Assembly: GCA_017560225.1 (NCBI GenBank)
Contig: JAFYOJ010000049.1
Coordinates: 1-45,546 of the forward strand
Direction of reading: 5' to 3'
Source of the DNA: Clostridia bacterium
Lineage (GTDB): Bacteria; Bacillota; Clostridia; UBA1212; UBA1255
Length of the DNA: 45,546 nt
Part shown: positions 38,166 through 45,546 of the stretch, in pieces
Numbering within the stretch: position 1 is the stretch's first letter
How the letters are laid out: each line of letters begins with the position of its first letter
Made by a program: the position numbers and the translations under genes
Notes under the pieces: generated by a model
What the model saw: the letters and a program-made list of their open reading frames with translations, nothing else
Told to the model about the DNA's origin: nothing
The model's database searches: none

Positions 38166-38624
38166 TTATCCCACTGTCAAAACATCGCCCGTAATATAGC
38201 AAGCATCCGTGCCTCCGTAATACACGGAAGTACCCCAACAGGGCATAAATTGAACGGAAACGTCCTGCGTCACAGTCAAAGAAAAAGAAACCTTCTCCCG
38301 AAAACCGTTTTCCGCCGTTACATCTTCTCCAATTTGCAGGGTATGGTAAACCGAATCTCCGATTTCCACCATACAAAATCCCGTGGAAGCCGAACCCTCC
38401 ACGTAAGCCAAAACCACATCATATGTGTCCGGCGTTAACGTCAGTGCACCGGACGTATCAAGCGCTTCAGCGCCCCGAAAAACCTGTACATTCAACAGAT
38501 AGTTGGCTGCAGCAATACGGCTATTGCCGGAATCAACGCCGGCGGTAAAATAGCCGAAGGCGGCAAAACTCATAGTCGTCAGCAAAAGTACAATGGATAC
38601 AATAGAAAAATAAATTTTCCTCAT
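38166..38624 (-). CDS. Small secreted protein, last gene of the TasA-like locus (SipW-type-like signal peptide)
   Basis: 152 aa: MRKIYFSIVSIVLLLTTMSFAAFGYFTAGVDSG... Its ATG overlaps the upstream stop (ATGA at 38621..38624). Confidence 0.65.
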   Translation of the reverse strand: MRKIYFSIVSIVLLLTTMSFAAFGYFTAGVDSGNSRIAAANYLLNVQVFRGAEALDTSGALTLTPDTYDVVLAYVEGSASTGFCMVEIGDSVYHTLQIGEDVTAENGFREKVSFSLTVTQDVSVQFMPCWGTSVYYGGTDACYITGDVLTVG

Positions 38625-39250
38625 ACCTGGCCTCCTTGCTGGGTAGCACTGACAATCAGTCCTAAATTAACTTCCGGCACCATATCGCCTCGATAATTAG
38701 CGTGAGCATCCACCGTATCCGGCATCCGTACAATAACGGCAATATAAGCCGTCTCACCGGCACCTAAGGCAGCCTTCTCCGACGCATATTGATTCAATTC
38801 CAGATTAGCAAGGGTGCAAACCTGCTCTCTTGTGCCCACAAGGGACGACAGCTCCGCCTCGTTGCCTCCCGTAACCAAGCCAAACAGTAAATAATCTTGT
38901 AAGATAAACGGATCTCCCCACACATTTTCCGCCACCGTATAACCCGTTACGTTGACCGCCGTATGAAAATCAAACGGGACAGATCCCTTGTTCTCCACTT
39001 TTAAATAAACCACTTGCACGTAACCAGGCTCATACAAAGCATTTTCATCAAAGATCTTTGTATCCGCTTCAATCGCTTGATAAGAACCATCCTCCTGACG
39101 GTAGGAAACGGCCAACTCAAAATCGGCAAAATGAAACACGTTCTGCATTTCAGGTGTTGAGTCAGAGAACCACGCAAGAGAGGTACCGGCACCCAGAATC
39201 AACCATAAAAGAATAAGGCCTACACTTAGTGTAAAAGCAATTTTCTTCAT
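38621..39250 (-). CDS. TasA/BsaA/camelysin-family secreted protein (SipW-type signal peptide)
   Basis: ORF 38621..39325. I start it at MKKIAFTLSVGLILLWLILGAGTSLAWFSDSTPE (ATG 39250), which forms an ATGA overlap with the upstream stop. The EPGYVQVVYLKVENKGSVPF strand pattern is typical of the family. Confidence 0.75.
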   Translation of the reverse strand: MKKIAFTLSVGLILLWLILGAGTSLAWFSDSTPEMQNVFHFADFELAVSYRQEDGSYQAIEADTKIFDENALYEPGYVQVVYLKVENKGSVPFDFHTAVNVTGYTVAENVWGDPFILQDYLLFGLVTGGNEAELSSLVGTREQVCTLANLELNQYASEKAALGAGETAYIAVIVRMPDTVDAHANYRGDMVPEVNLGLIVSATQQGGQV

Positions 39251-39890
39251 GCCGCTTCCCTCCTTCTGCGTAAAATAAACAACAAAATCAACACAATACC
39301 GGCACCGGCCAGCACTGTAATCCACAAAGGACGGTTAAAAGAATCGCCGGTAGGCGGCACCGGATCGTCATCTTCCACCGGAAATTCCTCCACCTTAAAA
39401 TCCCAATCCAAATACCCGGTTTGTCCGCTGTATTCATTCCCCAGTGTCACCGGCACTTCCAAAAGAACTTCCAAGTTTACAACCCCACCGGAATATAAGG
39501 TGCCCAAACAAACCCAGTCGGAAAGTTGTGCCGTTTCGGAAGCAGCCGCGTCAAACATATAGGCCATGGTGTTATTCGATGCAGTGCGCACTTTCAGACC
39601 CAACTGAGACAGAAAATCCTGAGAGTCCGCCTGCGCACCCAATGCACGCAAATAAATCTTGACTTTCACTTCCTTGGAAGCCGCATTCTTCACTTTAATT
39701 TTTTGCACCAAGGTATCCCCGGGCATAACGTCCTTAAATTCCGGAAACAGGTCCGTGGGAGACTGACTACTGCCGGGGGTAAAAATAAATTCACCCGAAT
39801 CTCCGGCATACGTGACGGTGCCTTCCTTTGCCATAGTCGGCAGACTGAAACACAGCAGCAATATGAAATCATGCAAAAAACTCTTTTCAT
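39247..39890 (-). CDS. Cell-wall-anchored (VPPTG sorting signal) beta-sandwich protein; the canonical RBS-ATG is out of frame with the body across a T6 (plus-strand A6) tract
   Basis: The body frame is ORF 39247..39942. It reads ...FLHDFILLLCFSLPTMA/KEGTVTYAGDSG..., then MPGDTLVQKIKVKNAAS..., and ends in VPPTGD, a TM helix (WITVLAGAGIVLILLFIL) and RRRREAA. The only SD-preceded ATG (39890, GAGGTGG 6 nt upstream, 11 nt after the upstream stop) is in the frame of ORF 39690..39917. One extra T in the 39875..39880 tract would join the two as MKRVFLHDFILLLCFSLPTMA. Confidence 0.6.
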
Positions 39891-45267: not shown

Positions 45268-45287
45268 TTTATTTTTCCTCCTAATCA

Positions 45288-45546
45288 TTAAGCCTCAATG
45301 GCCATTCCAACAGTCGCGAAAGCTTCATACGCATTATCGCCAACGTGCTCAGTCTGTACCGCCTGAGCCTTTACGTCAATTGCAAAACTGCCACTGAACG
45401 CAGCCGCTTGTTCTCGCGTTAGGGACTCGGGAACCTTCACAGCGTTGAAGAGTACCAGATCTTCTTCACTTTCAAGAATCTCTGTATAGTACAGTACGTA
45501 GGTAACAGTATCTGTCTCGCCATTGATATCCTTTGAGATGTGATCC
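45288..45546 (-). CDS. C-terminal fragment (gene starts beyond the window end) of another TasA/BsaA-like protein
   Basis: Not in the ORF track. My minus-strand translation is ...DHISKDINGETDTVTYVLYYTEILESEEDLVLFNAVKVPESLTREQAAAFSGSFAIDVKAQAVQTEHVGDNAYEAFATVGMAIEA* The IDVKAQAVQTEH strand parallels LTVSAHAVQSEH of the 188-aa paralog. The stop is TAA 45290..45288. Confidence 0.6.
   Translation of the reverse strand, partial: DHISKDINGETDTVTYVLYYTEILESEEDLVLFNAVKVPESLTREQAAAFSGSFAIDVKAQAVQTEHVGDNAYEAFATVGMAIEA

What the first reader, a model, noticed from the sequence alone, without database searches (positions are those of the whole stretch)
38166..45546. Co-directional locus of at least seven TasA/BsaA-like secreted proteins mixing small fibre-type subunits, two giant adhesin-like fusions and a sortase-anchored member
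**Seen in the sequence**
- All genes from 45546 down to 38166 are on the minus strand.
- The last three are chained by ATGA start/stop overlaps at 39247..39250 and 38621..38624.
- Five products carry the distinctive SipW-cognate signal-peptide end: TTFAWFTDS, GSTFAWFTDS, GTLAFYSTT, GTSLAWFSDS and AAFGYFTAG.
- The partial first gene ends in the same terminal beta-strand pattern (IDVKAQAVQTEH versus LTVSAHAVQSEH).
- One member instead has a classical signal peptide plus a VPPTG, TM helix and RRRR sorting signal.

**Established knowledge**
- TasA-family proteins (B. subtilis TasA, C. perfringens BsaA, camelysin) are processed by SipW-type signal peptidases.
- TasA polymerises into fibres by donor-strand exchange.
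- In B. subtilis a separate protein, TapA, anchors and nucleates the fibre.

**Inference**
- The locus may encode a heteropolymeric surface fibre.
- Its base would be covalently attached to peptidoglycan by a sortase substrate rather than by a TapA-like protein.
- The shaft or tip would be decorated by the 625- and 881-aa subunits.
- I do not know of a described TasA-type system with this combination.
- No sipW or sortase gene lies in the window, and the locus is cut by the window edge.
Basis: partly seen in the sequence, partly recalled or inferred. Interest (0 to 1): 0.8.

Follow-up and report, generated by a model that had tools for sequence, protein, structure and literature searches.

The report
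Wall-anchored TasA-type fibre operon
This stretch is the downstream two-thirds of a conserved operon of uncultured gut Clostridia that most likely builds a TasA/BsaA-type surface fibre with a sortase-anchored subunit and swappable adhesin-like subunits; the kind has been predicted from genomes before, but this family has never been studied.

Summary
Seven co-directional minus-strand genes, the ATGA overlaps, the SipW-type signal-peptide ends and the VPPTG/TM/RRRR sorting signal are all present.

Evidence for TasA/BsaA relatedness:
- Six products qualify, by Pfam/NCBIfam hits, profile-profile comparison, or a fold match of the anchored protein to the TasA fibre (8AUR).
- The seventh, G7, shares only the signal and N-terminal strand. 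It models as an unrelated small beta-sandwich.

Identical metagenome contigs show what lies beyond the window edge:
- two SipW-type signal peptidases;
- the full first gene;
- a tyrosine recombinase beside a 25-bp inverted-repeat promoter switch.

The gene order SipW-SipW-G1-(0-4 giant fusions)-G4-G5-G6-G7 recurs in about 80 fetched loci from species-representative MAGs. The anchored protein G5 has relatives in 201 such genomes, all uncultured gut Clostridia.

In this window the anchor gene carries a 1-nt deletion after codon 8.

The heteropolymeric, wall-anchored fibre reading is plausible but unproven. It is also less novel than claimed: two preprints (2024-2026) already describe TasA-superfamily loci with LPXTG anchors, sortases and several paralogs.

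Verdict: a new variant of a known kind, of moderate interest.

The parts
45288..45546 (-). G1, C-terminal 85 codons plus stop of a 228-aa small TasA/BsaA-like subunit. The rest lies beyond the window edge.
   Evidence: The translation is and the full gene on identical contigs. Profile-profile comparison gives G1~G4 99.8% over the full length. TIGR04090 and TIGR04088 hits are sub-threshold.
42622..45267 (-). G2, 881 aa: SipW-type signal peptide, a TasA-type N-domain of about 220 aa, then a beta-helix / pectate-lyase-like adhesive C-terminal region.
   Evidence: It scores 29 bits on Peptidase_M73 (cut-off 22.5) and 28.3 bits on Pectate_lyase_5 (cut-off 24.3). It scores 25 bits on TIGR04088 (cut-off 19).
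40647..42524 (-). G3, 625 aa: SipW-type signal peptide, a TasA-type N-domain, then a C-terminal region of about 400 aa with no family match.
   Evidence: It scores 30.3 bits on Peptidase_M73 and 30.3 bits on TIGR04088. There is no PDB sequence match.
40559..40630 (-). Conserved intercistronic two-hairpin element between G3 and G4. The second stem is about 20 bp, with invariant arms GGCAATCAAAGG / CCTTTTGATTGCC.
   Evidence: The fold z-score of the whole G3-G4 spacer is -5.1. 44 related spacers have a median z of -6.8. 15 of 29 pairs show compensatory changes in 39 sequences. There are 50 copies on the operon strand against 1 on the opposite strand, and 39 of them follow a giant-fusion gene. 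No Rfam family matches.
39902..40468 (-). G4, 188 aa: BsaA-family small subunit, the most conserved protein of the operon and the candidate major shaft subunit.
   Evidence: It scores 23.1 bits on Peptidase_M73 (cut-off 22.5) and 33.5 bits on TIGR04090 (cut-off 60). 107 of 108 distant relatives hit TIGR04090. Median identity to orthologues is 71%. N38, E51 and K74 are conserved.
39247..39942 (-). G5, sortase-substrate subunit, 214 aa when intact: ordinary A-x-A signal peptide, TasA-like predicted fold, then VPPTG, a TM helix and RRRR. In this window it is frameshifted at the T-run 39866-39868. The normal start is at 39888-39890.
   Evidence: The frameshift is shown. The PPxTG sorting signal is conserved in homologues. 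The AF2 model has pLDDT 67. The top Foldseek hits are 8AUR (TasA fibre, E 1e-5) and 7UEG (E 9e-4).
38621..39250 (-). G6, 209 aa: a stand-alone copy of the TasA-type domain that forms the N-terminus of the giant fusions.
   Evidence: Profile-profile comparison with the giant-fusion N-domains gives 100% probability (E 2e-39) over 200 residues. The TIGR04088 hit is sub-threshold at 14.3 bits.
38166..38624 (-). G7, 152 aa: SipW-type signal or anchor, a short donor-strand-like segment (SGNSRIAAANY), then a compact beta-sandwich with no demonstrable relative. It is a candidate TapA-like accessory or initiator.
   Evidence: The AF2 model has pLDDT 83. There is no significant PDB fold match: the best is E 0.086, and TapA 8AIF scores E 0.64. 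Only the N-terminal 45 residues resemble the paralogues. Longer homologues carry an N-terminal cytoplasmic extension, and three of those scanned carry a C-terminal LysM domain.

Best explanation
The region is the distal two-thirds of an operon of about 11 genes for a SipW-dependent, TasA/BsaA-type surface fibre with a cell-wall anchor.

**Shown**
- Two SipW-type signal peptidases with intact Ser/His lie just upstream.
- They are followed by six proteins related to TasA/BsaA by sequence or predicted fold.
- One of these, G5, carries a PPxTG sortase sorting signal instead of the SipW-type N-terminus.
- Two, G2 and G3, are fusions of the TasA-type domain to adhesin-like modules.
- The core gene order is conserved across many uncultured gut Clostridia.

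**Inferred**
1. After Sec export, the SipW paralogues cut the special signal peptides of G1, G2, G3, G4 and G6, and perhaps G7. This frees N-terminal strands that carry a conserved Asn.
2. G4 polymerises by donor-strand complementation into the shaft. The bond may be locked by a BsaA-like Asn-Lys isopeptide (N38-K74, catalysed by E51).
3. G5 joins one end of the fibre through its TasA-like domain. A sortase encoded elsewhere links it to peptidoglycan, which ends growth and anchors the fibre.
4. G1, G6 and the giant fusions are minor subunits. The fusions display variable binding or enzymatic modules.
5. G7 acts like TapA, donating a strand to start or cap the fibre.
6. Expression is switched on and off by a recombinase-driven invertible promoter upstream. 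The conserved hairpin element before G4 sets the relative transcript levels of minor and major subunits.

In this particular sequence the anchor gene is frameshifted. The fibre here would therefore be unanchored, unless the deletion is an assembly error.
For: - **Family hits:** Peptidase_M73, TIGR04088 and TIGR04090.
- **Paralogue relationships:** G1~G4, giant-fusion N-termini~G6 and G1~G6 by profile-profile comparison.
- **G5 fold:** the model matches the TasA fibre 8AUR and the archaeal bundling pilus 7UEG best. Its invariant N-terminal segment (residues 24-52) is the least confident part of the monomer model, as expected of a segment that pairs with a partner.
- **Signal peptidases:** two SipW-type genes pass TIGR02228, and their catalytic Ser and His are invariant. 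They lie directly upstream on contigs 99.97-100% identical to the window, with one strain variant at 99.3%.
- **Conserved order:** [Int][Zn52] SipWA [TM69] SipWB G1 (0-4 giant fusions) G4 G5 G6 G7 in about 80 loci. Relatives of G5 occur in 201 species genomes.
- **Conservation gradient:** G4 71% > G5 60% > G6 54% > G1 46% > G7 36%, far above the giant-fusion C-termini. This fits shaft and anchor against exposed variable parts.
- **Candidate triad:** 88 of 127 distant G4 relatives carry N, E/D and K at positions 38, 51 and 74. BsaA uses N35-E56-K74 (PMC11580942).
- **Adjacent sortase:** a sortase gene directly follows the operon in L059 and L064.
- **Fusion modules:** Beta_helix, LRR_5 and Pectate_lyase_5.
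- **Operon structure:** start/stop overlaps, short gaps and no internal promoter or terminator excess.
Against: - No polymerisation, cleavage or anchoring has been tested, and no multimer model could be run.
- The G5 model is only moderately confident (pLDDT 67, TM 0.42).
- G4 is below the curated TIGR04090 cut-off (33.5 against 60).
- I could not obtain the BsaA sequence, so the equivalence of N38/E51/K74 to the BsaA triad rests on position and conservation only.
- By my register (PGD...N motif), G5 has Tyr and Gln where G4 has N38 and K74. A covalent lock to the anchor is therefore not supported.
- No sortase gene lies in the window or in 78 of 80 related loci.
- G7 has no demonstrable relation to TapA.
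- The anchor gene is frameshifted in this window.
Confidence: 0.65

Rival explanations
1. The proteins form a released biofilm matrix, as TasA and C. perfringens strain 13 BsaA do, rather than an anchored pilus. G4 and its relatives would form free or membrane-tethered fibres. G5 would be an independent wall protein that merely shares the fold.
For: - BsaA oligomers in strain 13 are released by SDS and are not wall-linked, and srtB deletion has no effect.
- G5 is frameshifted in this window.
- A sortase gene is adjacent in only 2 of 80 loci.
Against: - G5 sits between G4 and G6 in every one of about 80 loci, and its start follows the G4 stop by 11 nt.
- Its sorting signal is conserved.
- Its conserved N-terminal segment resembles the donor region of G4.
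- AF3 models in another TasA-superfamily locus join the LPXTG protein to the fibril.
Confidence: 0.2
2. There is no heteropolymer. The TasA-type N-domain of the giant proteins is only a SipW-dependent export or retention module, and each protein acts alone as a secreted adhesin or glycan-active enzyme.
For: - The C-terminal modules are typical stand-alone surface or enzyme domains.
- BsaB did not enter BsaA oligomers in C. perfringens.
Against: - The N-domains keep the full TasA-type domain, about 200 aa, and the conserved donor-strand Asn.
- G6 is the same domain with no cargo.
- The number of fusions varies from 0 to 4 while the G4-G7 core stays fixed, as expected of accessory subunits of one structure.
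Confidence: 0.12
3. It is a classical sortase-polymerised pilus of the SpaA type.
For: One protein has a sortase sorting signal.
Against: - Only G5 has a sorting signal.
- The locus has no pilus-specific sortase.
- The subunits match none of the Cna-B or SpaA-type families and instead match TasA/BsaA families, with SipW genes alongside.
Confidence: 0.02

Closest known systems
Clostridium perfringens sipW-bsaA-bsaB-bsaC operon (Obana 2020, PMC7395162; Kivimaki/Melville preprint, PMC11580942)
   Same: - A SipW gene is followed by several TasA-like paralogues.
- G4 and its relatives hit the BsaA family model TIGR04090.
- There is a candidate Asn/Glu/Lys triad.
- In most C. perfringens strains one bsaB-like gene carries LPXTG, next to srtB.
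   Different: - This locus has two SipW paralogues and six or seven subunit genes.
- It has giant adhesin-like fusions and no VWA protein.
- It has no two-component regulator; a recombinase and invertible promoter take that place.
- It has no adjacent sortase.
- G4 scores below the curated family cut-off.
Bacillus subtilis tapA-sipW-tasA (fibre structure 8AUR; TapA, PMC10151520)
   Same: - Processing depends on SipW.
- Subunits are a beta-sandwich with an N-terminal donor strand.
- A minor accessory protein has a SipW signal, an N-terminal strand and a complete small beta-sandwich. That is TapA in B. subtilis and, by analogy, G7 here.
   Different: - The TasA system has one fibre subunit, no sortase-anchored member and no fusions.
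- TasA lacks the Asn/Glu/Lys triad.
- G7 shows no significant fold or sequence match to TapA.
Bacterial AbpX-type TasA-superfamily loci with LPXTG or SLH anchors (preprint 10.64898/2026.01.04.697558)
   Same: These are gene clusters with a dedicated signal peptidase, minor subunits, predicted tip proteins and an LPXTG anchor predicted to join the fibril by strand complementation.
   Different: - It is a different subfamily, with a 10-TM signal peptidase and c-di-GMP or histidine-kinase regulation.
- Relatedness to G5 was not tested here.
Chaperone-usher pili (Fim/Pap), as a working analogy only
   Same: - Assembly is by donor-strand complementation.
- There are an ordered tip adhesin, minor subunits, a major shaft subunit and a terminator/anchor.
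- Phase variation is driven by a recombinase-flipped promoter (fimS with FimB/FimE).
   Different: - There is no usher or periplasmic chaperone.
- The cell envelope is Gram-positive.
- The subunit family is unrelated.

Membership tests
TasA/camelysin family (Pfam PF12389 Peptidase_M73) | Match to the family model above the gathering score | tested here: met
   G2 scores 29, G3 30.3 and G4 23.1 bits against a cut-off of 22.5, over the N-terminal 75-95 residues only. 53 of 73 giant-fusion relatives match. G1, G5, G6 and G7 have no direct hit. G1 and G6 are linked by profile-profile comparison.
TasA/camelysin family | SipW-cognate signal peptide (TIGR04088) | tested here: met
   G2 scores 25 and G3 30.3 bits against a cut-off of 19. 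G6 (14.3) and G1 (13.3) are below the cut-off. 53 of 108 G4 relatives match. G5 has an ordinary A-x-A signal peptide instead.
TasA/camelysin family | Dedicated SipW-type (archaeal/ER-type) signal peptidase encoded in the locus | tested here: met
   It is not in the window. Two genes lie directly upstream on identical contigs. They score 68 and 104 bits on TIGR02228 against a cut-off of 51.85. Their Ser and His are invariant.
TasA/camelysin family | TasA-like beta-sandwich fold | tested here: inconclusive
   Only G5 and G7 could be modelled. The top hits for G5 are 8AUR (E 1e-5) and 7UEG, but pLDDT is 67 and TM 0.42. G7 has no match.
TasA/camelysin family | Polymerisation by donor-strand exchange | not testable with these tools
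   No multimer prediction was available and there is no experiment.
BsaA family (NCBIfam TIGR04090) | Score above the curated cut-off (60 bits) | tested here: not met
   G4 scores 33.5 bits (E 3e-8) and G1 22.7 bits. 107 of 108 distant G4 relatives match at E<=1e-3, the best at 6e-19. G4 is therefore BsaA-like and not a curated member.
BsaA family | Asn (donor strand), Glu and Lys triad for an intermolecular isopeptide bond | tested here: inconclusive
   N38 is conserved in 91% of 127 distant relatives, E51 in 70% (plus D in 11%) and K74 in 72%. The full N-[ED]-K combination occurs in 88 of 127. Alignment to BsaA N35/E56/K74 could not be made because the sequence was not obtainable.
Sortase substrates (LPXTG-type cell-wall sorting signal) | C-terminal motif, hydrophobic helix and positively charged tail | tested here: met
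   G5 ends in VPPTG, then LWITVLAGAGIVLILLFIL, then RRRREAA. The PPxTG(D) motif is conserved in homologues. The HMM score is just below the cut-off (TIGR01167: 13.7 against 15.9).
Sortase substrates | A cognate sortase in the genome | not tested
   None lies in the window. Sortase genes directly follow the operon in L059 and L064 only. The rest of the genome was not available.
Sortase-assembled (SpaA-type) pili | All pilins carry sorting signals, and a pilus-specific sortase lies in the locus | tested here: not met
   Only G5 has a sorting signal, and the locus has no sortase.
TapA-like accessory protein (for G7) | Sequence or fold relatedness to TapA | tested here: not met
   TapA 8AIF ranks 22nd in Foldseek, with E 0.64. 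The resemblance is in layout only: SipW-type signal, N-terminal strand and a complete small beta-sandwich.
Recombinase-controlled invertible promoters (invertons) | Inverted repeats flanking a promoter, beside a site-specific recombinase gene, with both orientations observed | tested here: met
   It lies outside the window. A perfect 25-bp inverted repeat flanks 233 bp, 4 nt after the recombinase stop. Similar repeats occur in all 11 loci that have the recombinase. The best promoter faces the operon in 3 genomes and the recombinase in 6. Inversion within one population was not tested.

The most novel reading that the evidence does not exclude
A widespread, uncharacterised class of Gram-positive surface fibre in gut Clostridia (Oscillospiraceae, Acutalibacteraceae) that combines two assembly principles.
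- The shaft would be built by SipW-triggered donor-strand complementation, possibly locked by isopeptide bonds.
- A sortase-anchored TasA-fold subunit would terminate it and link it covalently to the cell wall.
- A fixed core (G4-G5-G6-G7) would carry a variable set of 0-4 cargo subunits.
- The whole system would be switched by an invertible promoter.
- The cargo genes would be punctuated by a conserved structured RNA element.
Probability: 0.4. Interest if true: 0.75.

Novelty: new variant of a known kind. Interest (0 to 1): 0.58.

Why it matters
- **Prevalence.** The anchored protein alone has 3182 detectable homologues in the 5.8-billion-protein database. Relatives occur in 201 species-level genomes, all uncultured.
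- **Assembly.** If the model is right, these bacteria make a pilus-like organelle unlike either textbook Gram-positive route. It would be non-covalent or self-locking strand exchange, capped by a sortase substrate.
- **Experimental access.** TasA-type fibres are currently known only as a released biofilm matrix. This locus offers a way to study how such fibres can be tethered, given polarity and loaded with adhesins.
- **Host colonisation.** The phase switch and the swappable cargo genes point to host- or diet-driven surface variation.
- **Engineering.** The modular design could be used for surface display.

Tried and rejected
- **PDB sequence searches.** The G4 profile, G2 and G3 found nothing meaningful.
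- **Second protein search for G7.** Using an alignment as query added only 3 sequences.
- **Sortase search.** A TLxTC motif scan followed by Pfam found two sortases.
- **BsaA sequence.** No supplementary file is held for the BsaA preprint, so I could not align G4 to BsaA.
- **Promoter/terminator scan.** Across 37200-45546, promoter-like sites were at chance level. Terminator-like sites (14 against 7.8 expected) included none convincing between genes. There is thus no evidence for separate transcription units.
- **Rfam.** Nothing was found in 38000-45546.
- **First guess at the recombinase core site.** A 5-nt spacer matched nothing; the correct spacer is 4 nt. The site is absent from the window itself.
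- **Classical sortase pilus.** Considered and rejected because only one sorting signal is present.
- **Plus-strand ORFs inside G2-G7.** The 354-aa ORF at 43000-44064 is one example. They lie antisense within genes that public assemblies call on the minus strand.
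Full report
**1. Observation**

The minus strand from 45546 down to 38166 carries seven consecutive genes:
- G1, partial, 45288-45546;
- G2, 881 aa, 42622-45267;
- G3, 625 aa, 40647-42524;
- G4, 188 aa, 39902-40468;
- G5, open frame 39247-39942;
- G6, 209 aa, 38621-39250;
- G7, 152 aa, 38166-38624.

The two ATGA overlaps and all quoted peptide motifs are present. So is the VPPTG, helix and RRRR tail of G5, with VPPTG at 39346-39360. 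Independent gene calls on identical public contigs give the same genes.

Four other assemblies of the same sequence read ATGAAAAGAGTTTTTTGCATGATTTTCATA. This gives a textbook signal peptide, MKRVFCMIFILLLCFSLPTMA|KEG, behind a good ribosome-binding site. The window has one T fewer, at 39866-39868. Here the normal start (39888-39890) goes out of frame after 8 codons. The frame stays open only from an ATG inside G4, with no visible ribosome-binding site. In this sequence the anchor gene is either a real frameshift variant or a homopolymer error.

**2. What the proteins are**

- G2, G3 and G4 pass the Pfam Peptidase_M73 (camelysin/TasA) threshold over their N-terminal 75-95 residues.
- G2 and G3 pass TIGR04088, the SipW-cognate signal peptide model. 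G4 hits TIGR04090 (BsaA family) at E 3e-8 but scores 33.5 bits against a cut-off of 60.
- I built profiles from orthologues in related loci. They link G1 to G4 (99.8%, full length), G6 to the N-domains of the giant fusions (100%, E 2e-39, 200 residues) and G1 to G6 (97.6%).
- G5 is only weakly linked by sequence: 78% to G4 over the N-terminal region. An AlphaFold2 model from 30 homologues (pLDDT 67) has the TasA fibre 8AUR as its best PDB match (E 1e-5). The archaeal bundling pilus 7UEG and then chaperone-usher pilins follow.
- G7 is different. Only its first 45 residues resemble the others. Its confident model (pLDDT 83) has a membrane helix, a poorly defined linker carrying a donor-strand-like motif, and a compact beta-sandwich. 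No PDB entry matches significantly; TapA scores E 0.64.

So six of the seven products are supported as TasA/BsaA-like, not seven.

**3. What lies beyond the window edge**

The protein look-ups fetched seven loci (L001-L007) from five contigs. Six loci are 99.97-100% identical to the window over the operon, and L003 is a 99.3% strain variant. They continue upstream. In order, they carry:
- a tyrosine recombinase;
- a 52-aa zinc-ribbon protein;
- SipWA, 231 aa;
- SipWB, 177 aa;
- a 69-aa membrane protein;
- the full 228-aa G1.

Both peptidases pass TIGR02228, the archaeal/ER-type signal peptidase I model that covers SipW (68 and 104 bits, cut-off 51.85). Both keep their catalytic Ser and His in every orthologue. 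The refutation criterion 'no SipW anywhere' therefore fails.

No sortase gene lies in the window or its flanks.

**4. Distribution**

- G5 has 3182 detectable homologues, typically about 60% identical and mostly unnamed. A few are annotated as LPXTG anchor proteins.
- A scan of species-representative genomes found relatives in 201 genomes. The 80 best were kept, and all are MAGs labelled Acutalibacteraceae, Faecousia, Oscillospiraceae, Eubacteriales or Clostridia. Those whose isolate names give a source come from animal gut or faecal samples. The closest is a water-deer rectum MAG at 87%.
- In these loci the gene order is strikingly constant: [recombinase][Zn52] SipWA [TM69] SipWB G1, then 0-4 giant TasA-N-domain fusions of 350-2198 aa, then G4 G5 G6 G7.
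- Some MAGs carry two such operons (L012 with L033, and L044 with L079).
- Median identity to the window's proteins is 71% for G4, 68% for SipWA, 66% for SipWB, 60% for G5, 54% for G6, 46% for G1 and 36% for G7. The giant fusions are alike only in their N-domains.
- The C-terminal parts of the fusions match right-handed beta-helix, BspA-type LRR and pectate-lyase-like adhesive domains.
- A sortase gene (Pfam Sortase) directly follows G7 in two loci.
- All three longer G7 homologues that I scanned end in a LysM domain.

**5. Most likely mechanism**

Steps 3-7 are inferred.

1. *Shown:* this is a conserved, compact, co-directional gene set that couples SipW-type peptidases, several TasA/BsaA-type subunits and one sortase substrate with the same fold.
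2. *Established for relatives:* TasA and BsaA polymerise when the N-terminal strand freed by SipW inserts into the next subunit (PMC9674648, PMC10151520, PMC11580942). BsaA locks this with an N35-K74 isopeptide bond catalysed by E56.
3. G4 is the most conserved subunit and would form the shaft. Among 127 relatives at 30-57% identity, N38 in its predicted donor strand is among the most conserved residues (91%). N, E/D and K co-occur at positions 38, 51 and 74 in 88 of them. A BsaA-type lock is therefore plausible but not verified.
4. By my reading of the sequences, the same Asn sits in the N-terminal strands of G1, G2, G3, G6 and G7. TasA has Asp there, from my recollection of its sequence.
5. 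G5 keeps a G4-like N-terminal region, with Tyr and Gln at the positions of N38 and K74. It also has an ordinary signal peptide and the sorting signal. This fits a non-propagating terminal subunit that ties the fibre to peptidoglycan. The polarity is unresolved.
6. G1, G6 and the fusions would be minor subunits, and the fusions would display variable modules.
7. G7 resembles TapA in layout only and may initiate or cap the fibre.

**6. Comparison with what is known**

The concept is not new.
[quoted passage not shown] It suggests heteropolymers. It also notes that most C. perfringens strains have an LPXTG-bearing bsaB-like gene next to srtB.
- The AbpX preprint shows bacterial TasA-superfamily clusters with LPXTG anchors, sortases, minor subunits and tip proteins. 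AF3 models there join the anchor to the fibril.
- Neither preprint reports an experiment showing that a sortase substrate anchors such a fibre.
- Features of this family that I did not find described in the passages I read are the paired SipW genes, the fixed G4-G7 core with a variable cargo set, the invertible promoter, and the intercistronic RNA element. A full-text search listed no paper combining 'invertible' or 'phase variation' with TasA, SipW or camelysin among its top hits.
- I therefore rate the locus a new variant of a known kind.

**7. Side findings**

*Promoter switch.*
- Four nucleotides after the recombinase stop codon lies a perfect 25-bp inverted repeat flanking 233 bp (L003 4161-4185 and 4419-4443).
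- Comparable repeats, with core ACATAAT-N4-ATTATGT and spacers of 228-256 bp, occur in all 11 loci that have the recombinase. Paired sites also appear in a few more loci.
- In each segment the best sigma-70-like promoter (17-bp spacer) ends 32-51 nt from one repeat. It points into the operon in three genomes and towards the recombinase in six, including the window's own species.
- This is the signature of an invertible promoter. The assemblies of this organism appear to be in the OFF state.

*Intercistronic RNA element.*
- The G3-G4 spacer folds unusually well (z -5.1).
- It contains a two-hairpin element found 50 times on the operon strand and once on the other, usually just after a giant-fusion gene.
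- 15 of its 29 pairs show compensatory changes, and one G-U pair is invariant.
- No Rfam family matches.
- It may be a partial terminator or a processing and stabilising site that sets the ratio of minor to major subunit transcripts.

**8. Limits**

- No multimer modelling was possible, and there were no coordinates for measuring distances.
- The rest of the genome was not available, so no sortase inventory could be made.
- There is no expression or read-level data.
- Confidence is high that this is a TasA/BsaA-type fibre operon. It is moderate for wall anchoring through G5, and low for the individual roles of G1, G6 and G7 and for polarity.

Noticed in passing
L003 4161-4443, just beyond the window's right edge on identical contigs; also L011, L008, L018, L034, L042, L047, L054, L059, L069, L081 and L086: Candidate invertible promoter. 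A perfect 25-bp inverted repeat flanks 233 bp between a tyrosine recombinase gene and the first operon gene. The same architecture recurs in about 12 species. The promoter faces the operon in some genomes and faces away in others, including this organism.
   Followed up: partly
window 40559-40630 (minus strand); 50 copies in 36 related loci: Conserved, strand-specific two-hairpin intercistronic element with compensatory base changes and invariant arms GGCAATCAAAGG / CCTTTTGATTGCC. It usually lies just after a giant-fusion gene and before G4, and no Rfam family matches it. It could be a terminator/attenuator or an RNase processing or stabiliser site.
   Followed up: partly
window 39866-39868: One-nucleotide deletion in a T-run (TTT against TTTT in four other assemblies). 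It puts the normal start of the sortase-anchored gene G5 out of frame. It may be a strain variant, slippage or an assembly error.
   Followed up: partly
L003 4643-5338 and 5331-5864 (beyond the window edge): Two overlapping SipW-type signal peptidase genes, each with invariant catalytic Ser and His. SipWA has a long charged coiled-coil-like tail. A 52-aa zinc-ribbon protein and a 69-aa membrane protein accompany them in many loci.
   Followed up: partly
L001 4009-4851 and 6818-7494: On one otherwise identical contig, both the recombinase gene (153 + 91 aa) and G1 (175 + 50 aa) are split. This suggests frameshifts or assembly errors in this population.
   Followed up: no
L057 1562-2422, L063 2303-3139, L034 11372-12154: Longer G7 homologues carry an N-terminal cytoplasmic extension and Thr/Pro/Glu-rich tails. 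The three scanned also carry a C-terminal LysM peptidoglycan-binding domain. The window's G7 is a short form without any of these.
   Followed up: partly
L059 13077-13943; L064 2865-3644: A sortase gene (Pfam Sortase, TLSTC active-site motif) directly follows the operon in only these two of 80 loci.
   Followed up: yes
window 37347-38162 (plus strand): Convergent 271-aa ORF that ends 3 nt from the G7 stop. It has no family match and does not accompany the operon in any other species.
   Followed up: partly
window 12168-13760, 21180-24187, 30619-32793: Large ORFs (530, 565, 472 and 724 aa) with no Pfam match at E<=1e-5, among ordinary chromosomal genes (UvrC, phosphoglucose isomerase, O-antigen ligase-like, GH2). 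Three tRNA genes lie at 15866-16020 and 25069-25160.
   Followed up: no
L028 5364-5572; L031 3222-3430: Triplets of the same palindromic recombinase-type core site also occur downstream of the operon in two loci. These may be a second switch controlling neighbouring genes.
   Followed up: no
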